Positions 2,732 to 41,779 of a stretch of 64,000 nucleotides of DNA are shown here, piece by piece; positions within the stretch are counted from its first letter, which is position 1; each line of letters begins with the position of its first letter. The stretch is from an uncultured bacterium (lineage in GTDB: Bacteria > Patescibacteriota > Patescibacteriia > SG8-24 > DYFX01): contig CALCDZ010000001.1 in assembly GCA_937900255.1 (NCBI GenBank), positions 57,988 through 121,987 on the forward strand. The letters are read 5' to 3'. The translations under genes were made by a program, and so were the position numbers. Under the pieces are notes generated by a model that saw only the letters and a program-made list of their open reading frames with translations, was not told the origin of the DNA and did not search any database.

Positions 2732-4159
2732 ATGGGGATGCTCGGACGTATCGCGAGATTCACCGCCCTTCTTTTCGCAGTGGGAGCGTTTTGGCTGTTT
2801 TCGATGCCGAAAACCGCTTTCGCCGCCGCACATAACGTCAACGGCTGGGCGTGGTCGGGAACCACCGGCTGGATCTCGACGAACTGCAACACCGACCCGA
2901 GCGGTTGCGGAGGGGCGGCGGGGGATTATGGGTTGGATATCGATGCGACCGGAAACCTTTCCGGCTGGGCATGGTCGAGCCAGGCGGGTTGGATCTGCTT
3001 CGGCTCCACCTGCAACGGCGCGCCGGGCGCTCCTCCCGGAGGCACGCCATCGAGCCCCGCGTCCGCGGCCGATCACTATTGTCCGGGCTTCGTGCCGTGC
3101 GCCCGGTACGACTCGGCGACCGGCAAGCTGCACGGATGGGCGTACGTCATCAGCCAGACCGACGGCACGGACTATCGCGGCTGGATTTCGTTGAACTGCG
3201 AGGATGTCGGAACCAATACCGCTTCCCCGCATGCATGCCCTTCTTCCGACTACGCGGTATCGTTCGACGAGTCCGCCACGCAGGCGGCGGGAGAATTCTA
3301 CGGCTTCGCCTGGAACGGCAACGGCGACAATACCGGGAACGGCTGGATCGGTTTCAGTTGCGGACAGCCTTTCAGTTCTTGCGGCGCCGGCGGGCCCGGG
3401 CGTTGGGGCGTTACGAGCGGTTGGGTCAATACCGGCTGGTCGCAGATCCTCCCGATCGAAGGCGTCTACTCGCCTCCGGGAGGGGAGCCGACCTCCACGC
3501 TGTCCGACATCCCGATCGTCTTCAAGCAGTTTTCGGCGCCTGCGGGGTCGATCCTCGATTGCGTCTTCCGCATGTCGGACGGATCGTACCGGCAAATCGA
3601 GAGCGTTTTCCCGTCGCGCATCTCGCGCGTCGATCATGTGGAAACGTACTCGATCCTTGCGGGCGACGCGGTCGTCGATGGCGCCGGCAATCCCGTCCTA
3701 TGGACGTTCAGTTCCCAACCGCCGTCCCCGCCGTACGGCTGCGAAATCAGCGGGTCGCCATCCGTCCGCAAAGCCGTCTCGAACCCGATCGCCGTCCATC
3801 CGCAGACCTGGACGTTCGCCGGTCCGGGCGGAGCGGGGACGCTCGACGCGCTGCGGGCGAAATACTGCCTTGACGGCAATGTCGTCGCGGACCCATCGCG
3901 CGCCTACTTCCTGAACACGGCGCCAGATGGCACGGTCGTGCAATGCGATACGGAAGGCGATCTGGCCCTTACGTTGCTGCGCGCGCGCGGCGTACCGGTG
4001 GAGGTGAAGTGCTACGACAATATCGACAACGACGCCAACCTCCAGAAGGATTGCGCAGGCGGGACGCCCTCCACGGCTCCGGACCGGAACTGCCGCGGCA
4101 TCACGTACCTGTGCATCCCTCATCCTGCCGCTTCGTCACCGCAACCGCCCCGTCCATGA
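2732..4159 (+). CDS. secreted Trp/Cys-rich repeat protein (four G-W-A-W...G-W-I...C repeats plus one DND Cys repeat at the C-terminus)
   Basis: N-terminal signal peptide MGMLGRIARFTALLFAVGAFWLFSMPKTAFAAA. Repeats GWAWSGTTGWISTNC / GWAWSSQAGWICFGSTC / GWAYVISQTDGTDYRGWISLNC / GFAWNGNGDNTGNGWIGFSC. C-terminal KCYDNIDNDANLQKDCAGG. Stop overlaps the next start (ATGA at 4156-4159). Confidence 0.7.
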   Translation: MGMLGRIARFTALLFAVGAFWLFSMPKTAFAAAHNVNGWAWSGTTGWISTNCNTDPSGCGGAAGDYGLDIDATGNLSGWAWSSQAGWICFGSTCNGAPGAPPGGTPSSPASAADHYCPGFVPCARYDSATGKLHGWAYVISQTDGTDYRGWISLNCEDVGTNTASPHACPSSDYAVSFDESATQAAGEFYGFAWNGNGDNTGNGWIGFSCGQPFSSCGAGGPGRWGVTSGWVNTGWSQILPIEGVYSPPGGEPTSTLSDIPIVFKQFSAPAGSILDCVFRMSDGSYRQIESVFPSRISRVDHVETYSILAGDAVVDGAGNPVLWTFSSQPPSPPYGCEISGSPSVRKAVSNPIAVHPQTWTFAGPGGAGTLDALRAKYCLDGNVVADPSRAYFLNTAPDGTVVQCDTEGDLALTLLRARGVPVEVKCYDNIDNDANLQKDCAGGTPSTAPDRNCRGITYLCIPHPAASSPQPPRP

Positions 4160-7100: not shown

Positions 7101-8367
7101 TTCGGATGTCGGTACCGGCGATTGCAAGGATGCCGACTTCGATCATGACGGGGTTCCGGAAGGCCGTTATACCCCCGGCGCGTACGCTTCGCCTCCGACG
7201 CCGACGTACCCAGGCGCACAGCCTCATGCATGCGATGATTGCGTCAACCTTTACAATCCGAACCAGACCGACCGGAACGCCAATGGCATCGGCGACGCCT
7301 GCGAAGCCGGCGCGGTCGGTCGCTGTCAGTACAAATACTGCGGTTCCGCCCCGAACGACGCGACGCCTGGCGCGGCTTGCTCGACCGATGCCGATTGCGC
7401 GGCGCCGGACCTCTGCATCGTCGTCGATCAGCCGATGTGCACCGTCAACTGCGCCGCGGACGCCGATTGCCAGCCGCCGAACCTCGCGCTTTCCGGCGTG
7501 TGCAAGCTCGATTGGGGCGTCTGCGACGGAACCGGCGCGGGGGCGGGGGATTGCTGCTTCTCGAACTCCGATTGCGTTTCCGGAACCTGCAAGGCGCTCG
7601 TCAAGCCGTTCATCGAGACGGTTTCCGGCCAGATCTACAGCGGGGGCGAACTGCAGGCCGGCGAGACGCCGCCCGTCTATAACGCGACGTTCTGCCTGCA
7701 GTCCAACGGCTCGATCACCAATTTCACGAGCGCGGGCGGCTGCTCGCTCTCCGGTATCCCTGAGTACCGGATACCTTCCAAGGAGACGGGGTATTCAGGC
7801 TCCTTCGGATCGATCGACGTCGACGGTATCCTGAACGGGAAATATGGAGCGCTGAAGACGCCGGCACAGCCACCTGACCAGCTCGGCGGCGGCATCTACT
7901 ATTATCCCTCAGGCCTGACCGTGAGCGCGCCGATCGTCTTCAAGAACTCCGCGGGCGTCGCTCGCGCCAACGGGCTTGTGGTCGTCAAAGGGGACTTGCA
8001 CATCGACGCTGACCTTGAATACCAGGACCGCAACGAAAGCGACCTCAAGAACCTGGCCTCGGTCGGGTGGATCGTGCTCAAGGATGCGGGCGGGTCCGGC
8101 GGCAACGTCTACGTGTCCGGCACGGTCCGCAAGCTGGTCGGTGCGTTCTATGCCGAAAACGGCATCGATACCGGTGAAGGGACGACCCAGCTTGAGGCAG
8201 CGGGCGCCTTCGTCGCCAGGAACTTCAGCTTCAAGCGGCAGTATGCGTCGCGGACGTCGGGTTCGGAGCGCGTGACGTTCGACGCGCGCCTCATCCTCAA
8301 TCCACCGCCGGGCCTTTCGGATGCCGGACGTTCCCTGCCCGGCTTCCGTTCCGTGTCGGGGGAATGA
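4156..8367 (+). CDS. giant secreted Cys-rich repeat protein (nine CxDGxDNDGNGKxDCxDxxC repeats; thrombospondin-type-3 / MopE-like metal-binding motif) - putative surface adhesin
   Basis: Start MKKRVLIAAALIAAASA (signal peptide) at 4156; the ORF-track start at 3943 is an upstream extension. Nine tandem Asp/Cys repeats at 4738-5950. A TSP3-like YNPNQTDRNANGIGDACE at ~7243-7308. Further Cys-rich modules lie at 7300-7600. About 1403 aa. Confidence 0.75.
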   Translation: MKKRVLIAAALIAAASAWRVFWPPAAEALTGSSCPGNICNGTVKVGGQDVGYSWTENQGAAGASLKFRFRSGPYVASADPVRFIVTVSAPFTSNSSLKNPSPSTALPPNQVVNGPRTIVERSSASVSAGTSYDFVQELQYGSASPGTVSVTLEFDAYGTAKFVGPFDVYFDSASPSNRDEGGSLAPIYGGGYRQCYDAVDNDLDYRQDCADADCSGKPIGATSVCEASETTCNDGLDNDGNGKTDCADPLCNGRPGNAAGTKSCGVENGGAAHANCADGFDNDGNGKIDCSDDAPGTGCWKSGFQDCAATETSCTDNIDNDRDQDYSSAVDANPGTGVDCRDYDCKGRGNCTTDERKRWDAGSGTFVEDPAQCFDGIDNDLDGMKDCADPDCLGATSGAQRCTTYEAYLPPRPLDPTGASAPAFYFNYCNDGIDNDGNGLTDALDPACKNVFGECGPSPAIEDFTSLSCSDGKDNDLNGRIDCGDAACRAGGKIGRAGCLNGTCGLPAKYATTQTDAAACAASENAASVCGDGIDNDGNGKADCSDASCAGLRHGPTVGSVGAPYVCGAESGPLTCHDGADNDSDGGADCFDAACQDGAQCAKRPGAGGWALAASCPVIPETTALAPIAPGSLVLQYAHDDRIYAGSPYRVRFVGYGSFSSLTIVIGDAAVPANAFPFDAGTGNCTLAGTGSAKLRYGSPSAGVGVITEIPGQAPSDFDVTLTCASSSAMPLGPRSYKLSVVDTHAGNVEFGEASPVVQVFEHMPPTLTDPAVEAEAIVSGKVDVPVGGTVRFQATPSSDPSGICRCDFNLNGMSTSSPDGNCLVTIGPFANDAPSYAISAAAVDGASNKSATSTIQTINVNVIPSVAEDLTLGVDGNGAAVTTYRGGDDISLSANYRTDTLSTFPAASNCRVYVYDKSWTGGQAASVSMTPVPVGDMLGCQGVYTVPAGLAAGRYWIFVEATDSSGDIVRSNVQTFLKCEPSDVGTGDCKDADFDHDGVPEGRYTPGAYASPPTPTYPGAQPHACDDCVNLYNPNQTDRNANGIGDACEAGAVGRCQYKYCGSAPNDATPGAACSTDADCAAPDLCIVVDQPMCTVNCAADADCQPPNLALSGVCKLDWGVCDGTGAGAGDCCFSNSDCVSGTCKALVKPFIETVSGQIYSGGELQAGETPPVYNATFCLQSNGSITNFTSAGGCSLSGIPEYRIPSKETGYSGSFGSIDVDGILNGKYGALKTPAQPPDQLGGGIYYYPSGLTVSAPIVFKNSAGVARANGLVVVKGDLHIDADLEYQDRNESDLKNLASVGWIVLKDAGGSGGNVYVSGTVRKLVGAFYAENGIDTGEGTTQLEAAGAFVARNFSFKRQYASRTSGSERVTFDARLILNPPPGLSDAGRSLPGFRSVSGE

Positions 8368-31400: not shown

Positions 31401-33173
31401 TCAATCCTGATAGCCGGCGGGGCGTTCGCCGTCCTGGAGCGGCGAGCCGATCCGATAATCGGCGAAGAGGCTGACGTCGACGTCACGTACGCGCGTGTTC
31501 CAGGCGGTGCCGTAGAGCGCCTTGGCTTGCGCTTCGGTCTGGACCCAGCGGAGCAGGCCATCGGGCTCGACCGCGTAGGTCTTCGGATCGCTCTGGATCT
31601 TGATCAGGTAGGCGCCTTCGCGCAACCGGACGTTGCCACCGATCACGAGGCCGCTCAGCTGGTCGGCGGGCACGGTGACGACCTTGGAGAAGTCCTGCCC
31701 GAACCAGGACCGATAGCTGGTCTCGTTCGGGAAGACGTAGCGTTTCCCGTTCTTGTACCAGTAGACGGCTGGGGAGGCAGAGGCCTTGATGAGGTCTCCG
31801 TCCTTCAAAGGAAGGAAACCGACGCCCTGCGGCGCCGAAGCCTGGGCGGTGATAGGAGCCGACTCGATTGAGAGGGCATCCTTGACTCCGTCGGAAACGG
31901 CGAAGCGGCAGGTGACGGGAGTCGCGGTCAGGCCTTCTGCCAGCGTCGCCAGGCGCGCCGGTCGGTCGCCGACCACCGTGACGGTGGAGGGCCTGCCTCC
32001 GCAAGAGGCGGTGACGGAGGTCGGCGCCCGGTCGAGTTCAACGGAAACCTGCGCGGCGGAGTCCGTGAGGCGGGCGACGTCGGGTCCAGAGACGACCCTC
32101 GGGGCCGCGGTAGCCGGCGTCGAGATCATCACCGGGCTGACGACCGAAACGTTCATCACTGCGCCGGCGGCGTTCAGCGCTTCGGCCTTGAGCGTGAGCG
32201 CGCCGTTCACGGCGGGCGGATACCAGACGTAGGCGCCGTCGGTCACCGGCCGTTCGACGATGGGGCGATAGCTGCCGCTGCCGTCCGTCGAGTAACTGAG
32301 CCGTACCTTCACGACGCCCGCTTCGTTGGCGTACCAAGCCAGCGGGCTCGGCGCCCCGGCTTGGAAGGACGGAAGGCCATGGGGCGACGTCAAGGCGAAG
32401 ACGGTATCCTTGGAAGGCGTGGGGTCGTTCGAAGTGCCGGTCCGGAAACTGAAAGGATTCGGATAGCTGCCGAGCGCGACGGAGTTCCCGGCCGCGTCCT
32501 TCGCGTCGATCCCGAAAGTTTCGGCCGCTCCGCGCGCGTACGGCGCATGCGAGATCGTCAGTACGTTTCCGGAGAAGGCGTAGCCCCACCCATCAGGATT
32601 CTTTTCGGAGAAGGGGACGACGCTGCCTGACAAGACCGGCTCGCTGAAGGTGAGGACGAGGTCAGCGTCACGCGAAGCGTCGATCGTCCCGGCGGCTGGG
32701 TTGGAGGAAAGCAGCACCGGCGGAGCCTGGTCGATTTCCGTGTCGGAAGCGCCGGTGTCTCCGATGGCGATCGCCGAAAGTTCGGTCGTGCCGTCGCTCA
32801 CGCCCGCGTTCGCGCCCTGTGGCGCATAGGTGACTTCAAAACCCTGGGCAGAAGTCGTGACCGGCAAGCGCGCGTCGGACTCATCCAACGCGATTTCCAG
32901 CGACGCCGGGTCGCCCGAAACGGCCACGAAGGCGGAGCGGACGGCCAACGCCTGCCCTTGATAGCTCACGCCGATCCCTTTCGTGCCGCGAACGCGCCAA
33001 TCCGTCTTAGCGGGGTTGGCGAAGGCGATGACGGCATGGTCGATCCGTCCGTCGTGATTGAGGTCCCGGAGGGCGATGGACGTGACGTTCCCCGCCGCCG
33101 GGGCGGCAAGGGCCGGCAGGGCGGTCACCGCAAGCAAGGCGGCGAAAGAGCCCAAAAGAAGTTTGTTGCGCAT
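31401..33173 (-). CDS. secreted surface protein with Ig-like regions and a C-terminal ~100-aa domain shared with two other proteins in the window
   Basis: Start at MRNKLLLGSFAALLAVTALPALAA (signal peptide); the ORF-track start at 33329 is an extension. The C-terminus (AVYWYKNGKRYVFPNETSYRSWF...KIQSDPKTYAV...LRWV) matches domains in 54059-56668 and 49982-51391. Confidence 0.65.
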   Translation of the reverse strand: MRNKLLLGSFAALLAVTALPALAAPAAGNVTSIALRDLNHDGRIDHAVIAFANPAKTDWRVRGTKGIGVSYQGQALAVRSAFVAVSGDPASLEIALDESDARLPVTTSAQGFEVTYAPQGANAGVSDGTTELSAIAIGDTGASDTEIDQAPPVLLSSNPAAGTIDASRDADLVLTFSEPVLSGSVVPFSEKNPDGWGYAFSGNVLTISHAPYARGAAETFGIDAKDAAGNSVALGSYPNPFSFRTGTSNDPTPSKDTVFALTSPHGLPSFQAGAPSPLAWYANEAGVVKVRLSYSTDGSGSYRPIVERPVTDGAYVWYPPAVNGALTLKAEALNAAGAVMNVSVVSPVMISTPATAAPRVVSGPDVARLTDSAAQVSVELDRAPTSVTASCGGRPSTVTVVGDRPARLATLAEGLTATPVTCRFAVSDGVKDALSIESAPITAQASAPQGVGFLPLKDGDLIKASASPAVYWYKNGKRYVFPNETSYRSWFGQDFSKVVTVPADQLSGLVIGGNVRLREGAYLIKIQSDPKTYAVEPDGLLRWVQTEAQAKALYGTAWNTRVRDVDVSLFADYRIGSPLQDGERPAGYQD

Positions 33174-33262
33174 ATGCCCATATCTTAGCAGTTTTTCCGA
33201 GACATGGCACATCCACGTTTGAAACGCTGTCCCGACCTTTAAATATGAGGTGCACAGGGGCC

Positions 33263-33291
33263 TTGATGCGCTCGGGCCCCTCGTGTATAGT
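33263..33291 (+). promoter_or_regulatory. sigma-70-like promoter for tRNA-Asn (TTGATG-N17-TATAGT)
   Basis: TTGATG at 33263-33268, a 17-nt spacer, TATAGT at 33286-33291, about 38 nt upstream of the tRNA 5' end. Confidence 0.5.
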
Positions 33292-33329
33292 GTGCCTGGT
33301 ACCGACCGCCCATCCGGGGCGTGAGCCAT

Positions 33330-33404
33330 TCCGAGGTAGCTCAGCGGTAGAGCAGTGGACTGTTAATCCATTGGTCCTGGGTTCGAATCCCAGCCTCGGA
33401 GCCA
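33330..33404 (+). tRNA. tRNA-Asn (anticodon GTT), CCA encoded
   Basis: TCCGAGGTAGCTCAGCGGTAGAGCAGTGGACTGTTAATCCATTGGTCCTGGGTTCGAATCCCAGCCTCGGAGCCA. Acceptor TCCGAGG/CCTCGGA, anticodon loop CTGTTAA, T-loop TTCGAAT. Confidence 0.85.
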
Positions 33405-33441
33405 TGAGCAGGCGTGTGGGGCGACCCACGTGCTTGGTCAA
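33394..33441 (+). repeat. 48-bp direct repeat copy 1 (tRNA-Asn 3' end plus 37 nt downstream)
   Basis: cctcggagccatgagcaggcgtgtggggcgacccacgtgcttggtcaa. Copy 2 at 35157-35204 is identical except for one mismatch. Confidence 0.75.
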
Positions 33442-33443
33442 AA

Positions 33444-33478
33444 GCCAGCCAAAAAATTGGCTGGCTTTTGTGTTTTTT
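33444..33478 (+). terminator. rho-independent terminator after tRNA-Asn
   Basis: GCCAGCCAA-aaaa-TTGGCTGGC hairpin followed by TTTTGTGTTTTTT. Confidence 0.6.
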
Positions 33479-33708
33479 AGGTCGTTCGGATTAGCGACCT
33501 GAACCAGTGTGATTTCGCATTGGAAACGCACCCACGTGGGAATCAAGAACTTTAACCTTATTTCCTGGTTCGAATCCCACGTGTTTTCACGCGCCGTCAC
33601 TGCATGACCTCGGGCGCATTGGTTGACCCAATGCATCAGAAAAGCTACTCTTAAAGGAGGATTTCCAACGTAATTCGATATAGCACCTATTTTGCAAATG
33701 ATAATGTT

Positions 33709-34305
33709 ATGAAGCGAGCATATATTTTGCTGCTTGTCGTTACGTATAGCCTTGGACTGATCGGGGTGACATCCTGGTTTTGGTTGCGGCAAAATCGGAA
33801 TAATCAAACCGGATCTTCCTGCTTCGACTCCGCGATTTTTTGCAGGCCCGCGGAATACATGGCGGAGGACGGCATCGTTTATGCTCATCTGCGTCGGGGC
33901 GAAGAGGAGGCAATGATTGAACGTATCCGCGAGTATTACACTGCAGACTATCGCAAGACGCTACCTAAGAAGTTCGAAGCGGAATTGACCTCTGCCGATA
34001 CTCCTCAGGAAAAGCAAAAGTACGCAGACGCCCTTGCGTCCCTGAAAAAGTGGATTGACGTGGATACGTCCTTTAGCGCGCCTCGTACTTATAAGGACTT
34101 GGACGGCGTCGTGGCTGTGGTCACGGGCGCCTCGGCATTCGTACCGGGCGTAGGATACGTTGAGTCGAGAGCTAACGTTTTTTTCTTCCGCCGCGATGAT
34201 ACGTCGTACCGGCTCGCGGCTGTCACGCCCGTCGGGGAAGATGCAAGGACGTATGAATCGGCGCCGGTCGACATGTTCAAGAGGGGTGTGGGGGCTATAG
34301 AATAG
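33709..34305 (+). CDS. hypothetical membrane-anchored protein (island cargo)
   Basis: 198 aa with an N-terminal TM helix. It sits in an AT-richer segment and is convergent with the CHAP-like gene. Confidence 0.5.
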   Translation: MKRAYILLLVVTYSLGLIGVTSWFWLRQNRNNQTGSSCFDSAIFCRPAEYMAEDGIVYAHLRRGEEEAMIERIREYYTADYRKTLPKKFEAELTSADTPQEKQKYADALASLKKWIDVDTSFSAPRTYKDLDGVVAVVTGASAFVPGVGYVESRANVFFFRRDDTSYRLAAVTPVGEDARTYESAPVDMFKRGVGAIE

Positions 34306-34360
34306 CTTACCGAACAAAAAAGAGGCATTCTGACAGTGGATGCCTCTGATGATCTCGATC

Positions 34361-35041
34361 CTAGTACGTGTACGTGGCCTTGAGCCTGAATCCCTGGAAG
34401 ATGACGTTGGGGAAATAGTTCTGCCGTACCTGCCTGAGTGACATGTCGCCACAACGATTCGTCGTGTGCGCGGCGAGCCAGACGTCGTCCCCGTTTTGTC
34501 CCGTCACGAAGTAGGCGTGATCCCAGCTGCCGTCTCCGGTCCAGTCCGCTAGGATCACATCCCCGGCATAGAAGCGCGGAATGGTCGAGAGGCTCTGTGG
34601 AATGGACACGGCGCCATATGTCCTTCCGGAGTTAAGCATGAAGGTGCGGAACTCGCTGACACCGGCCCAGGAGTTGCTTCGGTTGTGATCACCGGCGCTG
34701 AGGTAGTACCAGGCATCGCTACACCACCAACACGTTCCGCCGACCGGCTGCCAACCGCCGAATGCGAGTGCTTGAGACACGAAGTTGGTGCAGTCGCTTG
34801 AGTATGCCTCGTAAGCCTTGTTGTACCCAGTGGTGAGTGACGTGTTGGTTATTCCGCAGTAGTGCAGCGCGTACGTGACTGCGGAACTCGCGGAATAGGT
34901 GCCGGTCGTGACCGACTGCACCACGGACCCCGTGTCGCTGCCGTCGCTGTCTCCGGACGTCGAGGCGTCCATGTCGGCAACGCACGACATCGATACCGAT
35001 CCAATGAGCGCGAAGACCAAAAGAGCTGTTCCTAGTCGCAT
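34361..35041 (-). CDS. secreted CHAP/NlpC-P60-like cysteine amidase (putative peptidoglycan hydrolase)
   Basis: Signal peptide MRLGTALLVFALIGSVSMSC. Cys motif SDCTNFVSQALAFGGW and downstream His GSWDHAYFV give the papain-fold Cys/His arrangement. RBS GGAAGAGGA before ATG 35041; an alternative start is at 35059. Confidence 0.55.
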   Translation of the reverse strand: MRLGTALLVFALIGSVSMSCVADMDASTSGDSDGSDTGSVVQSVTTGTYSASSAVTYALHYCGITNTSLTTGYNKAYEAYSSDCTNFVSQALAFGGWQPVGGTCWWCSDAWYYLSAGDHNRSNSWAGVSEFRTFMLNSGRTYGAVSIPQSLSTIPRFYAGDVILADWTGDGSWDHAYFVTGQNGDDVWLAAHTTNRCGDMSLRQVRQNYFPNVIFQGFRLKATYTY

Positions 35042-35156
35042 CTGTCCTCTTCCTTTCATGCAATGCCATCGACACTATGTCGATGCGGGAGGAGACTAGC
35101 ACGCGGTTGGCGTTGGCGTCAACCGTGCCTAGGGACTCCAGTGGGAATCGCTACCT

Positions 35157-35204
35157 GGGAGCCATGAGCAGGCGTGTGGGGCGACCCACGTGCTTGGTCA
35201 ATAG
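35157..35204 (+). repeat. 48-bp direct repeat copy 2 (att-like duplicate of the tRNA-Asn 3' end)
   Basis: cctgggagccatgagcaggcgtgtggggcgacccacgtgcttggtcaa, preceded by a degenerate T-arm-like gggaatcgctacc. Confidence 0.75.
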
Positions 35205-35250
35205 ATCATCAAATCATTGGTGGGCTGTTGACTGATAGCAACACGAGTCT

Positions 35251-35847
35251 ATGTGGTTCCACAAGGAGGAAAACCAAATAGATAAAATGTCAAAAGTTTT
35301 TATTGACGAATTTCCTTCTTGGGCGATTAAGCACTCGGCCAAATTGATTTCGGAACTTAAGGAATCACGAAACGAGTATGAGAAGAGTTGGGCCAATCTT
35401 CTCAAGGAACAAAATGCACTTGGAGATACTCTAATTGATTATTTTACGGCCGCGCACGCCATCTACATCAATTCACTGCCTGATGCTTATATTCAATTAT
35501 TGGGAGGTGGCAAAAAAATTGCATCAGCGCTCTCCCTGTGGCCAAGTCGATCCCAAAACTTTTTCCTAATAGCATCGAAGTTCCATCAAAAAGTTTCGTC
35601 TGATGTAGGTCGCGGCGGCAAGAGTTCACTGGTTGAATCATTTGAAAAAGTGTTTTCAAGCGGTGGAAATCTTGAACCCTTGGCTGTGCACATCAGCACT
35701 GCAATTGCGCATTCAATTTCCCAAGAAATGGGCGTGGACACAGATGACCCATTTTCAGCTGCAGGCCTATACTCAACTCTTTTTCGATTATCGCAGGAGC
35801 AACTGGAGTGGGTTTCCAGCCACATTATCAAGCGGGATGCCCGTTGA
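35251..35847 (+). CDS. hypothetical all-alpha protein, low-GC orphan gene
   Basis: 198 aa with markedly AT-rich coding sequence. Lies between the tRNA-end repeat (35157-35204) and the R-M flanking repeat (35935). No family recognised. Confidence 0.5.
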   Translation: MWFHKEENQIDKMSKVFIDEFPSWAIKHSAKLISELKESRNEYEKSWANLLKEQNALGDTLIDYFTAAHAIYINSLPDAYIQLLGGGKKIASALSLWPSRSQNFFLIASKFHQKVSSDVGRGGKSSLVESFEKVFSSGGNLEPLAVHISTAIAHSISQEMGVDTDDPFSAAGLYSTLFRLSQEQLEWVSSHIIKRDAR

Positions 35848-35934
35848 GACCCAAGTACGGCAGTGGCCCACAAATTGACCCCTTCAAAAGCCCTAAGGTG
35901 CCCACAGGAATTGGGCACCAGACCCACCAGCGGA

Positions 35935-36040
35935 GCCAGCAAGACCCATCACGCAAGTGGCGGGTCTTTGCTTTCCGTAAGTCGATTTCCCTTTGGGGGT
36001 GTCGTCTGCTAAAATTGGTCAACATCAGCCAAGGCCGCCT
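35935..36040 (+). repeat. ~105-bp imperfect direct repeat, copy A (immediately upstream of hsdM)
   Basis: gccagcaagacccatcacgcaagtggcgggtctttgctttccgtaagtcgatttccctttgggggtgtcgtctgctaaaattggtcaacatcagccaagg... is about 90% identical to copy B. Confidence 0.75.
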
Positions 36041-36070: not shown

Positions 36071-37522
36071 ATGTTCGAGCAAGCCTTCAAGAACATCGAC
36101 GACATCCTCCGCACGGATTCCGGTTCGGCTACGGAGCTGGACTACGTGGAGCAGACTTCCTGGATCATTTTCCTGAAGTACCTGCATGACCTGGAGCTCG
36201 AGAACGCGAAGAAGGCGGAGCTCTCCGGCAAGAAGCACGAGCATACCTTTGAACCGAAGTTCCGCTGGGATACCTGGGCCTGCCCACGGACACCCGACGG
36301 CAAGATCGACCACCATAAAGCGCTCGACGGTAAGGACCTCAAGGAGTTCGTCGACGAAAAGCTTTTCCCGTACCTCAAGAAGTTCAAGAGCGCAGATCCG
36401 GACACCGTCGAATACAAAGTCGGTGAGATCTTCAGCGAACTCAAGAATAAAATCACGAGCGGCTACAAGCTCCGCGAGATTTTGAACATCGTCTGCGATT
36501 TGCACTTCCAGCGTAGCGAGGAGAAGCATGAGCTCTCGCATCTGTACGAGGCCCGAATCGCCAAGATGGGCAACGCGGGACGGAACGGCGGCGAGTACTA
36601 CACGCCTCGCCCCCTCATCCGCACCATCGTGCAAGTGGTCAGGCCTGAAATCGGCGACAAGATCTACGACGGCGCCTGCGGCTCAGCCGGCTTCCTGGTC
36701 GAGGCCTTCAAGTACCTGACGGAAAACAGCGCCAAGCTCTCCACGGCCGAAATGCGCACGCTCCAGACCAAGACCTTCTACGGCAAGGAGATCAAGTCCT
36801 TGGCCTACATCATCGGCGTGATGAACATGATCCTGCACGGGGTCGAGGCGCCGCACATCCGGCACATGGACACGCTGTCCCAGAACGTCAACGACATCCA
36901 GGAGAAGGACCGCTTCGAGGTCATCCTGGCCAACCCGCCGTTCGGCGCCGGTATCGGCAAGGAAGTCCAGCAGAACTTCCCGATCAAGACCGGCGAGACG
37001 GCCTACCTGTTCCTCCAGCACTTCATCAAGAGCCTCAAGGCCGGCGGCCGGGCGGGCATCGTCATCAAGAACACCTTCCTTTCCAACACCGATGACGCCT
37101 CCGTGCGCCTGCGCAGGCACTTGCTTGAGAGCTGCAATCTCCACACCGTGCTGGACTTGCCGGGCGGCGTCTTTTCAGGCGCTGGGGTGAAAACTGTGGT
37201 GCTGTTCTTCGAGAAAGGCGCGCCCACCAAGAAGGTCTGGTACTACCAGCTCAAGCTCGACCGCAATCTCGGCAAGACCAACCCGATCAACGAGAAGGAT
37301 CTGGCGGACTTCGTGAAGCTCCAGAAGACCAAGGCCGATTCCTCCAACGCCTGGTCGGTCAAGGTTTCGGATCTCGATCAGGAAACGCTTGATTTGTCGG
37401 TGAAGAACCCTAAGGGCACCGAGACTGTCGCGCACCGCAGCCCCAAGGACATTCTCAAGGAGATGGTGAAATTGGATGCAGAGAGCGCGAAAGCGTTGGC
37501 TGGTATCAAGGGGTTGCTATGA
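36071..37522 (+). CDS. hsdM: type I restriction-modification system methyltransferase subunit
   Basis: MFEQAFKNIDDILRTDSG... N-terminus. N6-adenine MTase motif NPPFG. AdoMet motif DGACGSAGFL. Confidence 0.9.
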   Translation: MFEQAFKNIDDILRTDSGSATELDYVEQTSWIIFLKYLHDLELENAKKAELSGKKHEHTFEPKFRWDTWACPRTPDGKIDHHKALDGKDLKEFVDEKLFPYLKKFKSADPDTVEYKVGEIFSELKNKITSGYKLREILNIVCDLHFQRSEEKHELSHLYEARIAKMGNAGRNGGEYYTPRPLIRTIVQVVRPEIGDKIYDGACGSAGFLVEAFKYLTENSAKLSTAEMRTLQTKTFYGKEIKSLAYIIGVMNMILHGVEAPHIRHMDTLSQNVNDIQEKDRFEVILANPPFGAGIGKEVQQNFPIKTGETAYLFLQHFIKSLKAGGRAGIVIKNTFLSNTDDASVRLRRHLLESCNLHTVLDLPGGVFSGAGVKTVVLFFEKGAPTKKVWYYQLKLDRNLGKTNPINEKDLADFVKLQKTKADSSNAWSVKVSDLDQETLDLSVKNPKGTETVAHRSPKDILKEMVKLDAESAKALAGIKGLL

Positions 37523-38679
37523 GTGGTGAGTGGCCCACGAGAAAATTGGGCGCTGTTTTGCAGATAATCAATGGTTACGCGTTTGATTCCAAACATTTTG
37601 ATGCCACAAATGGAATGCCGCTGATTAGGATCCGTGATTTAAAATCTGGTACTCACACGGAAACGCGATTTGCAGGGGCATACGACAAAAAATATATAGT
37701 TAAAGCAGGAGATTTGCTCATTGGAATGGATGGTGAGTTTGGTTGCTACGAATGGGGTGGTGAACCCGGCTTATTAAATCAGCGAGTATGCAAGTTACAG
37801 TCGTTTGCAACATCGCTAGCGCCGCGCTTCTTATTTTACGGAGTTAACAGTTACCTTAAGGACATTGAGAATGAGACTGGATATACCACAGTAAAGCACC
37901 TGTCTTCAAAACAAATCCTCGACATCGAATTTCCAATTCCGCCGCTACCGGAGCAACGGCGGCTCATTAAGTTACTCGACCAAGCTTTTTTGGATATCGC
38001 CATCGCCAAGGCGAATGCCGAAAGGAACTTGCAAAATGCGCGCGATCTTTTTGAGAGCCGTCTCAATGAGATTTTTACCAAGCGGGGACTGGGGTGGGTG
38101 GAAAAACGGCTCGATCAGATTGGAACAACACAAACCGGTTCGACTCCGTCGACTTCCGATAAAGAAAACTACGGCAACTTCATTCCTTTTATAAAGCCGG
38201 CAGACTTTAATGAAGATGGCTCATTGAACTATGGCAATGCTGGTCTTACCGAAAAGGGATTATTGAAAGCGCGCAAAGTGCGAGCTGGATCAGTCCTAAT
38301 GGTGTGCATCGGTGCGACTATCGGGAAATGTGGTTATTGTGATCGTGATGTAACCACAAATCAGCAAGTTAACTCACTCACCCCATTCAAAGGTACTTTC
38401 TACAAGCTTGTTTATTATCAGATGCGTACCAGAGACTTTCAAAGACGCATGCTTTTGAGTTCTGCTCAGGCCACGTTGCCGATAATAAACAAGTCTAAGT
38501 GGGAGGCTTTAACAATTTTGCTGCCACAAAAGACGGGAGAACAATCACGTATCGTTATGGAGCTGGCCGGCTTGGACAAAGAAGCAGCCCGCCTCAAGTC
38601 CACCTATCAGAAAAAGCTCCACGCATTGGAAGCGCTAAAGAAATCCTTGCTCAACAAGGCTTTTCGTGGTGAGCTGTAG
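37519..38679 (+). CDS. hsdS: type I restriction-modification system specificity subunit
   Basis: 386 aa with two target-recognition-domain halves separated by conserved helical repeats. ATGA overlap with hsdM. AT-rich relative to hsdM and hsdR. Confidence 0.85.
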   Translation: MSGEWPTRKLGAVLQIINGYAFDSKHFDATNGMPLIRIRDLKSGTHTETRFAGAYDKKYIVKAGDLLIGMDGEFGCYEWGGEPGLLNQRVCKLQSFATSLAPRFLFYGVNSYLKDIENETGYTTVKHLSSKQILDIEFPIPPLPEQRRLIKLLDQAFLDIAIAKANAERNLQNARDLFESRLNEIFTKRGLGWVEKRLDQIGTTQTGSTPSTSDKENYGNFIPFIKPADFNEDGSLNYGNAGLTEKGLLKARKVRAGSVLMVCIGATIGKCGYCDRDVTTNQQVNSLTPFKGTFYKLVYYQMRTRDFQRRMLLSSAQATLPIINKSKWEALTILLPQKTGEQSRIVMELAGLDKEAARLKSTYQKKLHALEALKKSLLNKAFRGEL

Positions 38680-38685
38680 GCGCAT

Positions 38686-40989
38686 ATGAACGAAGCCGAA
38701 ACGCGCGCGGAATACGTCGACCCCAAGCTTAAGGCGAGCGGGTGGGGCGAAATCGAAGGATCGAAGGTCCTGCGCGAGTTTCGGATCACCGAGGGCAAGA
38801 TCCAGACGGGCGGCACGCGCGGGAAGCCGGAGATCGCCGATTATGTGCTGGTCTACAAGAACCGCAAGCTCGCCGTCGTCGAAGCTAAACCGGAAGGGAT
38901 GGAGGCGACGGAGGGCGCAGTCCAGGCCAAGGCCTATGCGGCGAAGCTCGGTTTGGAATACACCTACGCCACCAATGGTCGGGACATCTACGAGGTGTCG
39001 ATGAAGACCGGGCACGAAGGTGCCGTGGGCAGCTTCCCGACGCCTGACGAACTCTGGGCCCGCACCTTCGCCGAGCAGAACGCCTGGCGCGAGAAGTTCG
39101 CCGCCGTCCCGACGGAGGGCGAAAAGGGCCGCCGGTATTATCAGGAGCTGGCCATTGACAACGCGCTCGAGGCCGTGGCCGAGGGCAAGAAGCGGATCCT
39201 GGTGACCATGGCCACCGGTACCGGCAAGACGGCCGTGGCGGCGCAGTTCTCCTGGAAGCTGTTCCAGTCGCGTTGGAACCTCCGGGGCGACGGCGCGCGC
39301 CGGCCGAGGATCCTGTTCCTGGCCGACCGCAACATCCTCGCGGACCAGGCCTTCACGAACGACTTCGCGATCTTCGAGCGCGACGCCCGGGTGCGCATCA
39401 ACCCGCTCGACATCCGCAAGAAGGGCGGCGTGCCGACCGGCGGCAGCGTCTTCTTCACCATCTTCCAGACGTTCATGAGCGGGCCGGGCGATACGCCGTA
39501 CTTCGGCGAGTACCCGCCGGATTTCTTCGACCTCGTCATCATCGACGAGTGCCATCGCGGCGGCGCCAACGACGAGGGCAACTGGCGCGGCATCTTGGAA
39601 TACTTCGCCCCGGCCGTGCAGCTCGGTCTGACGGCGACGCCGAAGCGCAAGGACAACGTGGATACTTATAGATATTTCGGCGAGCCGGTCTACACGTATT
39701 CCCTCAAACAAGGCATCAATGACGGCTTCCTGACGCCGTTCAAGGTCAAGCGCATTCAGACGACGCTGGACGAGTACGTCTACACCTCGGACGACCAGGT
39801 CATCGAGGGCGAAGTCGAGGAGGGCAAGATCTACGAGGAAGTTGACTTCAACAGGATCATCTTCATCAAGGAACGCGAAGCCAAGCGCGTGCGCATCGTG
39901 CTGGACGAGATCGACCAGGACGAGAAGACGATCGTCTTCTGCGCGACCCAGGACCACGCCTTGGCCGTCCGCGACCTGATCAACCAATACAAGGACAGCC
40001 GAGACCCGAATTACTGCGTCCGCGTGACCGCCAACGACGGCGCGCGCGGCGAGCAGTTCCTGCGGGAGTTCCAGGACAACGAGAAGACCATCCCGACCGT
40101 CCTGACCACTTCGCAGAAGCTCTCGACGGGCGTGGACGCCCGCAACGTCCGCAACATCGTGCTGATGCGGCCGGTCAACTCCATGATCGAGTTCAAGCAG
40201 ATCATCGGGCGCGGCACGCGGCTTTTCGACGGCAAGGAGTATTTCACCATCTACGACTTCGTCGACGCCTATCACCACTTTTCGGACCCGGAGTGGGACG
40301 GCGAACCGATCGAGGAAACGGAAGAGAAACCCCGCCACTCCAAGGAGTCCCAAGGAGATCCCAAGAAACCGCGCCAGGTGTCCGAACAGCCGGAAGACCA
40401 GCCGGCGAAAAAGCTTCGGATCAAGTTGCGTGACGGCAAGGAACGCGAGATCCAGCACATGATCTCGACCTCGTTCTGGAGCGCCGACGGCAAACCGCTT
40501 TCGATCCAGGAGTTCATGGACAACCTGTTCGGGGCGATGCCTGAGTTCTTCAGAGACGAGGAGGAGCTCCGCAAGATCTGGTCCGACCCGCGCACGCGCC
40601 AGGCCTTCCTCGATAAGATCGCAGAACTCGGCTACGGCAAGGATGCGCTGGAGACGCTCCAGAAGATGATCGACGCTGAGGACAGTGACCTGTTCGACGT
40701 GCTTTCGTATGTCTCGTTCCTGACGCCGCCGATCACGCGCGAGGAGCGCGTCAGCCACGCGAAGGATCGCATCTACCAAGGCCTCGGCGAACTCCAGCAG
40801 GATTTCCTCGGGTTCGTCCTCGGGAAGTACGAGGAGAGCGGGGTCGACGAGCTCGGCGAGCACCAACTGCCGATCCTGCTGAACCTGAAATACCAGGCCA
40901 TCGCTGACGCCGAGCAGGCGCTCGGGAATGTCGGCACAATCCGCACGCTCTTCCTGGATCTGCAGAGGAAGCTGTATGCTAAGATGTGA
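38686..40989 (+). CDS. hsdR: type I restriction enzyme R subunit (shorter than usual at 767 aa)
   Basis: N-terminal MNEAETRAEYVDPKLKASGW, helicase motifs ATGTGKT and DECHRG, then a C-terminal helical region. Confidence 0.85.
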   Translation: MNEAETRAEYVDPKLKASGWGEIEGSKVLREFRITEGKIQTGGTRGKPEIADYVLVYKNRKLAVVEAKPEGMEATEGAVQAKAYAAKLGLEYTYATNGRDIYEVSMKTGHEGAVGSFPTPDELWARTFAEQNAWREKFAAVPTEGEKGRRYYQELAIDNALEAVAEGKKRILVTMATGTGKTAVAAQFSWKLFQSRWNLRGDGARRPRILFLADRNILADQAFTNDFAIFERDARVRINPLDIRKKGGVPTGGSVFFTIFQTFMSGPGDTPYFGEYPPDFFDLVIIDECHRGGANDEGNWRGILEYFAPAVQLGLTATPKRKDNVDTYRYFGEPVYTYSLKQGINDGFLTPFKVKRIQTTLDEYVYTSDDQVIEGEVEEGKIYEEVDFNRIIFIKEREAKRVRIVLDEIDQDEKTIVFCATQDHALAVRDLINQYKDSRDPNYCVRVTANDGARGEQFLREFQDNEKTIPTVLTTSQKLSTGVDARNVRNIVLMRPVNSMIEFKQIIGRGTRLFDGKEYFTIYDFVDAYHHFSDPEWDGEPIEETEEKPRHSKESQGDPKKPRQVSEQPEDQPAKKLRIKLRDGKEREIQHMISTSFWSADGKPLSIQEFMDNLFGAMPEFFRDEEELRKIWSDPRTRQAFLDKIAELGYGKDALETLQKMIDAEDSDLFDVLSYVSFLTPPITREERVSHAKDRIYQGLGELQQDFLGFVLGKYEESGVDELGEHQLPILLNLKYQAIADAEQALGNVGTIRTLFLDLQRKLYAKM

Positions 40990-41120
40990 CGACGTGGGTA
41001 CGATCGTCGATTGCTGATTCGCCGGAATCAATAAACCGAATCCGCCCCTGTGAGGCGGGGGAGATGGACGTACTCGGCCTGTCTCCGTATCGAGGTTTCA
41101 ACGTCCTCCACGACGTGGAA

Positions 41121-41226
41121 GCCAGCAAGACACATCACGCAAGTGGTGTGTTTTGCTTTCCATAAGTCGATTTCCCTTTGGGGGTGTCGTCTGCTAAAAT
41201 TAGTCGACATCAGCCAAGACGCATTT
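41121..41226 (+). repeat. ~105-bp imperfect direct repeat, copy B (immediately downstream of hsdR)
   Basis: gccagcaagacacatcacgcaagtggtgtgttttgctttccataagtcgatttccctttgggggtgtcgtctgctaaaattagtcgacatcagccaagac... Confidence 0.75.
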
Positions 41227-41240
41227 TTTCCAAGTCCTAG

Positions 41241-41705
41241 GTGAAGGTTCATGGTCAACCTTATGAAACGGTGCCGTATATTCACATGACCAAAAGCCCC
41301 CTCAAAAATATACCTGCCGATTTTCGTAAAGCACTTGCGGCTGCGCCCAAAGCCAGGGAGCAATGGGAATCGTTGACGGCGATCGCGCGGAGGGATTTCA
41401 TCAGTTGGATCGCATCGGCCAAGCAAGAGAAGACGCATGCGCGTCGGATCGAGGTGGCGTGTTCGAAGCTTGCCGCCGGGCAGCGTCGTCCTTGCTGCTA
41501 CGCGGTCGTGCCGATGGATCTTTATAAGGCGCTTGCCACGGCGCCGAAGGCCAGGACGCAGTGGAGCGGCCTCACGCCGGATGAGCGCCGGGATCTTGTC
41601 GGTTGGATCGGGATATCCGGGAAACCGGGGGCGAGGGTGGGCCGAATCGCCGAAGCTTGCGCGATGCTCGCAGCCAGGAAAAGACGTTTTAAACCAGCGA
41701 AATAG
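41241..41705 (+). CDS. YdeI/OmpD-associated-family-like protein with an internal duplication
   Basis: Two ~55-aa repeats (ALAAAPKAREQWESLTAIARRDFISWIASAK / ALATAPKARTQWSGLTPDERRDLVGWIGISGK). GTG start at 41241; an alternative ATG is at 41286. Confidence 0.5.
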   Translation: MKVHGQPYETVPYIHMTKSPLKNIPADFRKALAAAPKAREQWESLTAIARRDFISWIASAKQEKTHARRIEVACSKLAAGQRRPCCYAVVPMDLYKALATAPKARTQWSGLTPDERRDLVGWIGISGKPGARVGRIAEACAMLAARKRRFKPAK

Positions 41706-41779
41706 CTTGCGAACGTTCCCGCCACACGGCATGGCACCGAACGTTTGATATTTCGGCCTCTTTCGGGCAAAATAGGGCC

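What the first reader, a model, noticed from the sequence alone, without database searches (positions are those of the whole stretch)
35251..35847. AT-rich orphan gene between the att-like repeat and the R-M cassette
A 198-aa predicted all-alpha protein with no recognisable motifs. Its coding sequence is strikingly AT-rich relative to the 64%-GC background. It is sandwiched between two different repeat families inside a defence-gene neighbourhood. This is the kind of context where uncharacterised defence or anti-defence genes are found.
Basis: partly seen in the sequence, partly recalled or inferred. Interest (0 to 1): 0.55.

Follow-up and report, generated by a model that had tools for sequence, protein, structure and literature searches.

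The report
Rare orphan gene in defence hot spot
The AT-rich ORF is a real, horizontally acquired gene of a very rare, uncharacterised all-helical protein family, sitting as a one-gene cargo module in a tRNA-Asn integration hot spot beside, but not functionally tied to, a type I restriction-modification cassette; its function is still unknown.

Summary
ORF 35251-35847 (+) encodes 198 aa at 43.7% GC in a 62-63% GC chromosome that is probably Patescibacteria/CPR. It lies between a tRNA-Asn 3'-fragment repeat and a ~100-nt repeat that brackets a complete hsdM-hsdS-hsdR cassette.

Across about 11 independent loci no neighbour is conserved and none has a type I R-M system. The gene moves as a single-gene cassette, occurs alone, and is truncated in one near-identical operon. 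Nearly half of the loci hold TA, nuclease or candidate-defence genes. The same tRNA-Asn site in two related genomes carries Ppl-like or PifA-like defence cargo.

Members either share an N-terminal M-G-[LFW]-F-S-K motif or carry a fused or adjacent 2-TM module, which suggests action at the membrane.

Verdict: an autonomous accessory cargo gene of a defence hot spot. A defence role is plausible but unproven, and coupling to the R-M system is not supported.

The parts
35251..35847 (+). 198-aa ORF, a member of a rare uncharacterised all-alpha protein family. It is the only copy in the window.
   Evidence: ORF and sequence. Relatives at 24-47% identity and the same length. dN/dS 0.09-0.31 among close relatives. 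AF2 pLDDT 89.9, 9 helices. GC 43.7% against 62.4%. Single copy by tblastn.
33330..33404 (+). tRNA-Asn(GTT), the anchor of the integration hot spot.
   Evidence: ARAGORN and Rfam. The same tRNA sits in the syntenic position in L026 and L027.
33385..33470 (+). Repeat copy 1: tRNA-Asn 3' end, the 44-nt core (33398-33441) and a terminator hairpin (33439-33470).
35145..35230 (+). Repeat copy 2 (att-like remnant): a diverged tRNA-Asn 3' fragment, the identical 44-nt core (35158-35201) and a degenerate hairpin (35196-35233). It ends 20 nt before the ORF start. The same remnant is conserved in the related genome L027 (1659-1712).
35934..36033 (+). Copy 1 of the ~100-nt repeat. It holds a strong hairpin followed by a T-rich tract (the likely terminator of the ORF), then a conserved 65 nt with an extended -10-like TGCTAAAAT ahead of hsdM.
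   Evidence: Fold -24.2 kcal/mol, z -4.6. The hairpin is 94% identical to the one that directly follows tRNA-Asn in L027.
41120..41218 (+). Copy 2 of the ~100-nt repeat, after hsdR and ahead of the OmdA/YdeI gene (41286-41705). Its hairpin carries compensatory substitutions relative to copy 1.
36071..40989 (+). Type I R-M cassette hsdM-hsdS-hsdR. It is neighbouring cargo bracketed by the ~100-nt repeat, and I do not consider it a functional partner of the ORF.
   Evidence: Pfam N6_Mtase/HsdM_N, Methylase_S, ResIII/EcoEI_R_C. No type I R-M is found next to any other family member.

Best explanation
The ORF is a functional-looking, horizontally acquired single-gene cassette. It encodes a member of a very rare, uncharacterised all-helical protein family that is seen only in uncultured bacteria, several of them Patescibacteria/CPR.

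In this genome it is one cargo module in a tandem array of insertions at a tRNA-Asn integration hot spot. The order is: tRNA-Asn, then an old shared module (unknown ORF plus Amidase_6), then the att-like tRNA remnant, then this gene, then a terminator/promoter repeat, then the type I R-M cassette, then the repeat again.

Its position next to the R-M system reflects co-localisation in a hot spot that collects defence cargo, not an operon or a functional pair.

The protein most likely works on its own: it needs no fixed partner, can stand alone and can be lost.

It probably acts at the cytoplasmic face of the membrane, tethered by its conserved N-terminal M-G-[LFW]-F-S-K motif or, in some members, by a fused or adjacent 2-TM module.

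My best guess for its role is a stand-alone, conflict-related function such as phage exclusion or abortive infection (about 0.3).

Shown: the gene is real, its composition is foreign, the family is rare, the cassette behaves as a mobile unit, no partner is conserved, and the hot spot has the architecture described. Inferred: membrane tethering and any defence role.
For: Real gene:
- Relatives have the same length, with invariant W24, A68-H69 and W187.
- dN/dS is 0.09-0.31.

Rarity and lack of relatives:
- 3 hits among 5.8 billion clusters with the single sequence, and 20 hits among 1.84 billion representatives with a profile.
- Nothing in phage records, plasmid records or viral contigs.
- No above-threshold Pfam, NCBIfam, PHROGs, PADLOC or PDB-sequence hit for the family.

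Foreign origin:
- The gene is more AT-rich than its surroundings in every locus, for example 0.437 against 0.624 here and 0.369 against 0.538 in L013.

Cassette behaviour and autonomy:
- L001 and L009 share 87.5% DNA identity only from 10 nt before the start codon to 77 nt after the stop. The upstream genes differ, and the breakpoint is at the TGAtATG junction.
- No neighbour is conserved by BLASTP.
- The gene is solitary here and in L020.
- In L025 it is truncated after about codon 32, although the operon is 98.4% identical to L001.

Hot spot:
- The window is syntenic with a Patescibacteria MAG (L027) from ligA to tRNA-Asn.
- ORF 33709-34305, the amidase gene and the tRNA remnant are shared with L027 at 72% nucleotide identity. 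This gene and the R-M cassette are not.
- The same site holds a serine recombinase plus a Ppl-like ATPase in L027, and a serine recombinase plus a PifA-like NTPase in L026.
- A strong hairpin separates the ORF from hsdM.

Membrane link:
- 18 of 21 members start M-[GSDK]-[LFW]-F-x-K. The three exceptions carry an N-terminal TM segment instead.
- The 2-TM extension of P0008 and P0027 is homologous to a separate 93-aa gene upstream of the family gene in L020.
Against: - No function has been demonstrated.
- Defence enrichment rests on about 5 of 11 loci, with loose categories (TA, PIN, HNH, DUF559) and mostly short contigs.
- Several loci are housekeeping contexts.
- The membrane-tether idea rests on sequence patterns only, and the window protein's own N-terminus (MWFHKEE) departs from the motif.
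- No sigma-70-like promoter or clear Shine-Dalgarno sequence lies upstream of the window copy, and a hairpin ends 17 nt before its ATG. Expression here is therefore unproven.
- No integrase and no third att copy delimit this module in the window.
- The AlphaFold database could not be searched, so 'no structural relative' covers only the PDB and viral models.
Confidence: 0.55

Rival explanations
1. The protein is a functional accessory of the adjacent type I R-M system, for example a regulator, an anti-restriction or restriction-alleviation factor, or an added effector that was acquired together with hsdMSR.
For: It lies immediately upstream of hsdM on the same strand. Both are AT-shifted relative to the host.
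Against: None of the other roughly 10 independent family loci has a type I R-M system. A strong hairpin plus a separate promoter-like element lies between the ORF and hsdM. The ~100-nt direct repeat brackets the R-M cassette alone and excludes the ORF. The family pI is 5.0-6.5 with net charge -1 to -10, unlike the DNA mimics Ocr and ArdA. There is no PADLOC or Pfam match to ArdA, KlcA or C-proteins.
Confidence: 0.07
2. The family is an immunity or antitoxin-type neutraliser that pairs with variable upstream effectors, such as the HIT-like enzymes in its closest relatives. The window copy would be an orphan neutraliser left after its partner was lost.
For: In the closest relatives the gene is translationally coupled (TGAtATG) to an upstream gene. 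HIT-like proteins with intact HxHxHxx motifs occur in both operon types. A constant gene with variable partners, which can also occur alone, fits orphan immunity genes.
Against: In L025 the family gene is truncated while the upstream operon is 98.4% identical and intact. A toxin could not tolerate this. The HIT-like proteins of L001 and L009 are barely related to each other, and in L001 one of them lies four genes away. The more distant loci fetched (L012, L013, L015, L016, L019, L020, L022, L023) show no HIT partner. No neighbour matches a known toxin family, apart from unrelated TA pairs nearby. The gene is solitary in L020 as well.
Confidence: 0.13
3. The family has a non-conflict accessory role, for example in membrane or envelope physiology or stress tolerance. 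It appears in variable regions only because it is dispensable and mobile.
For: Some loci are housekeeping contexts: the S10 ribosomal operon, greA-lysS, and beside PAP2, carbonic anhydrase and ahcY. It is linked to small membrane proteins by fusion or adjacency. There is no hit to any defence model.
Against: It is AT-rich relative to the host in every locus and swaps as a cassette. TA, nuclease or candidate-defence genes are frequent neighbours, and the window site is a defence hot spot.
Confidence: 0.2
4. The family is real, but the window copy is a silent or decaying remnant. It would be an intact reading frame without expression signals, left stranded after rearrangements at the hot spot.
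For: There is no sigma-70-like promoter or good Shine-Dalgarno sequence upstream, and a hairpin ends 17 nt before the ATG. The N-terminal motif is degenerate (MWFHKEE against MGLFSKK). In its closest relatives the gene depends on translational coupling to an upstream gene, and that gene is absent here.
Against: The frame is full-length and all invariant and nearly invariant family residues are retained. The identical sequence was recovered from two further assemblies. A dedicated terminator follows the gene.
Confidence: 0.1

Closest known systems
Cargo genes of tRNA-linked genomic (defence) islands / integration hot spots
   Same: It lies next to a tRNA gene, with a direct repeat of the tRNA 3' end. 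Its GC is strongly deviant. The cargo at this site varies between related genomes and includes R-M, Ppl-like and PifA-like systems next to serine recombinases.
   Different: The window has no integrase, and no att copy closes this particular module. The module is a single 0.6-kb gene. The tRNA remnant upstream is old and shared with a relative.
Single-protein abortive-infection / superinfection-exclusion factors (small, often membrane-associated, family-poor proteins of islands and prophages)
   Same: It is small, autonomous, AT-rich, mobile and probably membrane-proximal, with no recognisable enzymatic domain.
   Different: It has no sequence match to any Abi or other model in PADLOC or PHROGs, it is absent from phage and viral collections, and no phenotype is known.
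ESCRT-III / PspA / Vipp1 N-terminal membrane-binding motif (MG[LI]F...; recalled from my own knowledge)
   Same: The family's N-terminus, M-G-[LFW]-F-S-K, resembles the extreme N-termini of PspA, Vipp1 and CHMP proteins, which contact membranes. In this family it is mutually exclusive with a TM anchor.

Membership tests
Anti-restriction DNA mimics / type I R-M accessory proteins (Ocr, ArdA, ArdB/KlcA, C-proteins) | Sequence or profile match to the family | tested here: not met
   No Pfam, NCBIfam or PADLOC hit for the protein or for any of the 21 family members.
Anti-restriction DNA mimics / type I R-M accessory proteins (Ocr, ArdA, ArdB/KlcA, C-proteins) | Strongly acidic surface (pI about 4, large negative net charge) for the DNA mimics | tested here: not met
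   pI 6.16 and net charge -3 for the window protein. The family range is pI 5.0-6.5 and net charge -1 to -10.
Anti-restriction DNA mimics / type I R-M accessory proteins (Ocr, ArdA, ArdB/KlcA, C-proteins) | Recurrent genomic linkage to R-M systems or to the leading regions of mobile elements | tested here: not met
   Only the window locus, out of about 11, has an R-M system. There are no plasmid or phage matches.
Toxin-antitoxin / toxin-immunity pair | Conserved two-gene pairing with a cognate toxin | tested here: not met
   No neighbour is conserved by BLASTP. The gene is solitary in the window and in L020. It is truncated in L025 while the upstream operon is intact.
Toxin-antitoxin / toxin-immunity pair | Neutralisation of a partner's toxicity | not testable with these tools
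   Requires co-expression experiments.
Known anti-phage defence systems (PADLOC-DB v2) | Profile match to a component of a described or candidate system | tested here: not met
   0 hits for the window protein. Only two chance-level hits (E 0.019 and 0.027), each in one of the 21 members.
Known anti-phage defence systems (PADLOC-DB v2) | Enrichment next to known defence genes | tested here: inconclusive
   Defence, TA or nuclease neighbours occur in the window, L009, L013, L019 and L023. The tRNA-Asn site itself is a defence hot spot. The sample is about 11 loci, many contigs are short, and no background comparison was made.
tRNA-linked genomic island cargo | Adjacent to a tRNA gene, with a direct repeat of its 3' end | tested here: met
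   tRNA-Asn 33330-33404. Repeat 33385-33470 / 35145-35230 with a 44-nt identical core.
tRNA-linked genomic island cargo | Composition that deviates from the host, and absence from the syntenic site of relatives | tested here: met
   GC 0.437 against 0.624. L027 shares the flanks up to the tRNA remnant but lacks this gene and the R-M cassette.
tRNA-linked genomic island cargo | Integrase or recombinase within the island | tested here: not met
   No recombinase was seen between 33.4 and 41.3 kb. Large serine recombinases are present at the same site in L026 and L027.
ESCRT-III / PspA / Vipp1 superfamily | Long alpha1-alpha2 helical hairpin fold | tested here: not met
Integron-type gene cassette | attC recombination site at the cassette end, and an IntI integrase nearby | not tested
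   Cassette-like boundaries were seen between L001 and L009. No attC model was run, and no IntI-type integrase was seen in any fetched locus.

The most novel reading that the evidence does not exclude
The family is a new single-protein, membrane-acting anti-phage or anti-MGE factor with a previously unseen helical fold. It spreads as a one-gene cassette among Patescibacteria and other uncultured bacteria and lands in defence hot spots. It is tethered to the membrane by an N-terminal MGxFSK motif or by a fused or adjacent 2-TM module.
Probability: 0.15. Interest if true: 0.6.

Novelty: new member of a known kind. Interest (0 to 1): 0.3.

Why it matters
If the family proves to be a stand-alone defence or exclusion factor, it would add a new fold and mechanism to the defence repertoire of Patescibacteria/CPR, a group whose immune systems are poorly known.

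Two points stand already. The gene is a clean example of a rare, confidently modelled protein family with no structural or sequence relatives. And the tRNA-Asn locus is a well-defined defence-cargo hot spot, holding R-M, Ppl-like or PifA-like systems, that is comparable across three related genomes.

As it stands this is an ordinary kind of object, an island-borne hypothetical protein, and the suggested link to the R-M system does not hold.

Tried and rejected
- Curated libraries. Pfam, NCBIfam, PHROGs and PADLOC scans of the protein, of all 21 family members and of about 35 neighbours gave nothing for the family. The single Pfam SPV1_VP10 hit (E 0.0023, below the cut-off, 1 of 21 members) was rejected as chance.
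- PDB sequence-profile search: 0 hits at E up to 10.
- Mobile-element collections. Viral contigs, phage records and plasmid records gave no relatives.
- Conserved partner. All-against-all BLASTP of neighbours across loci found none. The HIT-like proteins of L001 and L009 share only the HxHxH motif.
- DNA-mimic idea: rejected on charge.
- ESCRT-III/PspA idea, raised by the N-terminal motif: rejected on fold.
- A third att copy closing the module: none found with blastn-short.
- Non-coding RNA in the region: no Rfam hit other than tRNAs.
- Alternative start at M13, behind the internal AAGGAGG: rejected. The spacing is 17 nt, and relatives align from residue 1.
- Literature. A search for HIT-domain defence partners found only ThsC of type II Thoeris (PMC8565338), and the HIT-like neighbours do not match PADLOC models.
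- The first alignment given to the search for related loci was too divergent to use.

Full report
**1. The observation**

The window has an ATG-initiated ORF at 35251-35847 (+) of 198 codons. Its GC is 43.7% (GC3 42.2%). The rest of the window is 62.4%, and the blocks at 1-33329 and 41780-64000 are 63%.

Upstream lies tRNA-Asn(GTT) at 33330-33404. A direct repeat at 33385-33470 / 35145-35230 consists of the tRNA 3' end followed by a core. The tRNA part has diverged in the second copy, while the 44-nt core is identical (33398-33441 = 35158-35201). The second copy ends 20 nt before the ORF.

Downstream, a ~100-nt repeat at 35934-36033 / 41120-41218 (89-96% identity) brackets a complete type I R-M cassette:
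- hsdM, 36071-37522
- hsdS, 37519-38679
- hsdR, 38686-40989

Both repeats have exactly two copies in the window, against zero expected by chance.

**2. It is a real gene of a very rare family**

The single-sequence search of 5.8 billion protein clusters returned only three proteins. One is the identical sequence from two other assemblies of the same population. The other two are 198-aa proteins at 44-47% identity.

An exhaustive HMMER profile search of 1.84 billion representatives found 20 proteins at E <= 1e-3, 16 of them below 1e-10. A second profile search added a few more.

The 21-member alignment (A5) has these conserved positions:
- Invariant: W24, A68-H69, W187.
- Nearly invariant: K5, P22, L32, G86, F104, S130, P143, L173, L180, Q184.

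Close relatives differ mostly at synonymous sites. dN/dS is 0.30 for L001/L009, 0.22 for L001/L019 and 0.09 for L022/L023. The reading frame is therefore under purifying selection. The short ORFs on the opposite strand need no explanation of their own.

**3. No known relatives by sequence or structure**

- NCBIfam, PHROGs and PADLOC give nothing meaningful for the window protein or for any of the 21 members. Pfam gives only a sub-threshold SPV1_VP10 hit in one member, which I take as chance. PADLOC gives only two chance-level hits among the 21.
- A profile search of all PDB sequences gives no hit even at E = 10.
- With three sequences AlphaFold2 gave a mediocre model (pLDDT 66). With the 21-sequence alignment it gave a confident one: pLDDT 89.9, pTM 0.88, all five models at 88 or above, nine helices and no strands.
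- Foldseek against viral models gave nothing at E <= 0.001.
- The AlphaFold database library was not available, so 'no structural relative' applies only to solved and viral structures.
- The family is only mildly acidic (pI 5.0-6.5, net charge -1 to -10), unlike DNA-mimic anti-restriction proteins.

**4. Genomic contexts of relatives**

I obtained about 10 independent loci besides the window.

| Locus | Context of the family gene |
|---|---|
| L001 | Last gene of an operon: HIT-like, 175 aa (TM), 177 aa, 239 aa, family gene; beside fabF-like genes |
| L004 / L009 | Coupled directly to a different HIT-like gene; flanked by a DUF559 endonuclease and a Gp49-like/PhdYeFM pair |
| L012 / L024 (a Candidatus Saccharibacteria MAG) | Between unknown 154-aa and 157-aa genes; near PAP2, carbonic anhydrase and ahcY |
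| L013 (an 876-kb contig) | Inside the S10 ribosomal-protein operon between rplB and rpsS, with a HATPase that matches the candidate defence protein PDC-M43B (E 4.8e-12) and unknown 80-aa and 150-aa genes |
| L015 | Fused to an N-terminal 2-TM segment |
| L016 | After a DnaA-like ATPase fragment |
| L019 | After unknown genes; next to a PIN gene |
| L020 | After greA-lysS and a small 2-TM gene |
| L022 / L023 | Coupled on both sides to unknown genes; near HNH and XRE genes |

No neighbour is conserved between divergent loci by BLASTP. The two HIT-like proteins share only the HxHxH motif. None of these loci has a type I R-M system. The family is absent from viral contigs, phage records and plasmid records.

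**5. The gene behaves as an autonomous single-gene cassette**

- L001 and L009 share 87.5% DNA identity only from 10 nt upstream of the start codon to 77 nt past the stop. The breakpoint is at the upstream gene's stop codon (TGAtATG), and the upstream genes are unrelated.
- L025 is 98.4% identical to L001 over 2.7 kb of the upstream operon. The family gene there breaks off after about codon 32 and is replaced by other DNA. The upstream genes therefore tolerate its loss. This argues against an antitoxin or immunity role for that operon, unless the contig is chimeric.
- In the window and in L020 the gene has no coupled partner.
- In every locus the gene is more AT-rich than its surroundings, for example 0.369 against 0.538 in L013 and 0.347 against 0.446 in L012.

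**6. The window locus is a tRNA-Asn integration hot spot that collects defence cargo**

The Big_5 protein next to the tRNA (31401-33329, minus strand) has a 46% homologue annotated 'Patescibacteria group bacterium'. Its 646-kb contig (L027) is syntenic with the window through ligA, gatC, gatA, dnaG, the Big_5 gene and tRNA-Asn. The window is therefore probably a Patescibacteria genome, as are at least some other carriers of the family.

In L027 the order after tRNA-Asn is:
1. The core and a strong hairpin.
2. A 6.3-kb insert with a large serine recombinase and a Ppl-like PHP/SMC ATPase (PADLOC E 1.7e-42).
3. A second copy of the hairpin.
4. Homologues of window ORF 33709-34305 and of the Amidase_6 gene (72% nucleotide identity to window 33620-35191).
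5. The same diverged tRNA fragment plus core as window 35145-35201.
6. Unrelated genes (NUDIX).

So the small segment between the two tRNA repeats is old and shared. The material beyond the remnant, which is this gene and the R-M cassette, is specific to the window lineage.

A second relative, L026 (63% Big_5 identity), has at the same tRNA-Asn a ClpP gene, a PifA-like KAP NTPase (E 1.5e-32), a serine recombinase and a methyltransferase.

The hairpin that directly follows tRNA-Asn in L027 is 94% identical to the hairpin at window 35941-35972. That hairpin recurs after hsdR with compensatory substitutions (-24.2 and -23.0 kcal/mol, z -4.6 and -6.8). The ~100-nt repeat is thus a displaced and duplicated terminator followed by a promoter-like segment (extended -10-like TGCTAAAAT). 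It brackets the R-M cassette alone.

The gene downstream of the second copy is a double OmdA/YdeI gene at 41286-41705 (+).

I read the region as a tandem array of small cargo modules separated by att-derived or terminator units, with the ORF as one module and the R-M cassette as the next. No recombinase and no third att copy remain in the window.

**7. Clues to how the protein works**

Eighteen of 21 members begin M-[GSDK]-[LFW]-F-x-K. The three that do not (P0008, P0027, P0014) carry an N-terminal transmembrane segment instead.

The 2-TM extension of P0008 and P0027 is homologous to the separate 93-aa 2-TM gene that lies upstream of the family gene in L020 (pairwise E 6e-7 and 4e-5). This is a fusion/split relationship. 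Small TM proteins also occur in the L001, L019, L022 and L023 operons.

I infer that the helical domain works at the cytoplasmic face of the membrane. The N-terminal motif recalls PspA, Vipp1 and ESCRT-III N-termini (from my own knowledge), but the fold does not.

The only invariant polar residue is H69.

The window copy's N-terminus (MWFHKEE) departs from the motif. No sigma-70-like promoter or good Shine-Dalgarno sequence precedes it, and a degenerate hairpin ends 17 nt before the ATG. Expression of this copy is therefore unproven, although all conserved residues are intact.

**8. Verdict**

The gene is real and foreign, and it sits in a true defence hot spot. Nearly half of the family's loci have conflict-type neighbours.

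Against that, there is no conserved link to type I R-M or to any partner, several contexts are housekeeping, and nothing ties the protein to a known defence or anti-defence family.

The best-supported account is an autonomous, mobile, probably membrane-proximal accessory protein carried as single-gene cargo. A stand-alone phage-exclusion or abortive role is my preferred guess (about 0.3), but nothing here tests it.

The rivals are:
- an orphan immunity or antitoxin-like neutraliser
- an R-M accessory
- non-conflict membrane physiology
- a silent remnant

All four are less well supported. They are listed with the tests that would decide between them.

Interest is modest (0.3): a rare family with an apparently new fold, but an ordinary kind of object with no demonstrated function.

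Noticed in passing
L027 5704-9718; L026 3567-7887 (sites syntenic to window 33405 onward): The same tRNA-Asn site in two related Patescibacteria-like genomes holds different cargo. L027 has a large serine recombinase plus a Ppl-like PHP/SMC ATPase (PADLOC E 1.7e-42). L026 has a large serine recombinase plus a PifA-like KAP NTPase (E 1.5e-32), ClpP and a methyltransferase. This looks like a lineage-wide defence hot spot.
   Followed up: partly
window 35934-36033 and 41120-41218: The type I R-M cassette is bracketed by a ~100-nt direct repeat. Its hairpin shows compensatory substitutions between the copies and is 94% identical to the hairpin that directly follows tRNA-Asn in L027. The repeat could allow precise loss of the cassette by recombination.
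   Followed up: partly
window 41286-41705 (+): A double OmdA/YdeI-domain gene (Pfam E 1.4e-33). The public gene call at this place (L007 6574-7278, a 234-aa ORF on the opposite strand, window 41028-41732) is probably spurious.
   Followed up: yes
L013 5890-11067: In an 876-kb genome the S10 ribosomal-protein operon is interrupted twice. A Gp49/HTH toxin-antitoxin pair lies between rplC and rplD. A PDC-M43B-like HATPase, an 80-aa gene, the family gene and a 150-aa gene lie between rplB and rpsS.
   Followed up: partly
L025 3886-3990 compared with L001 3261-3857: An operon 98.4% identical to L001 in which the family gene is cut off after about 32 codons and replaced by an unrelated 435-aa gene. 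This is either natural loss of the gene or an assembly chimera.
   Followed up: partly
L020 2280-2561; P0008 and P0027 N-termini: A 93-aa 2-TM protein encoded upstream of the family gene in L020 is homologous to the N-terminal extension fused to the family domain in P0008 and P0027. This is a split/fused gene pair.
   Followed up: yes
L009 5680-5740: A roughly 21-nt tandem duplication of the 3' end of the family gene (AAAGCCAAAGGACATAATTAGG / AAGCCAAAAGACATAATTAGG) lies just past the stop codon. It is absent from L001.
   Followed up: no
window 33567-33579; L027 1428-1573 and 3290-3435: A further 13-nt tRNA-Asn T-arm fragment lies inside the shared segment of the window. In L027 a 146-nt repeat (99% identity) duplicates the 3' end of the NUDIX gene on either side of the amidase block. 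Both look like more scars of repeated rearrangement at this site.
   Followed up: no
window 33709-34305 (+) and 34361-35059 (-): An unknown 198-aa ORF (coincidentally the same length as the target, and unrelated to it) and an Amidase_6 gene form an old block between the two tRNA-Asn repeats. The block is conserved in L027. The ORF has no family hit in any library.
   Followed up: partly
window 3943-8367 (+): A 1474-aa protein with acidic double-disulfide repeats (NCBIfam NF033662, E 1.6e-46).
   Followed up: no
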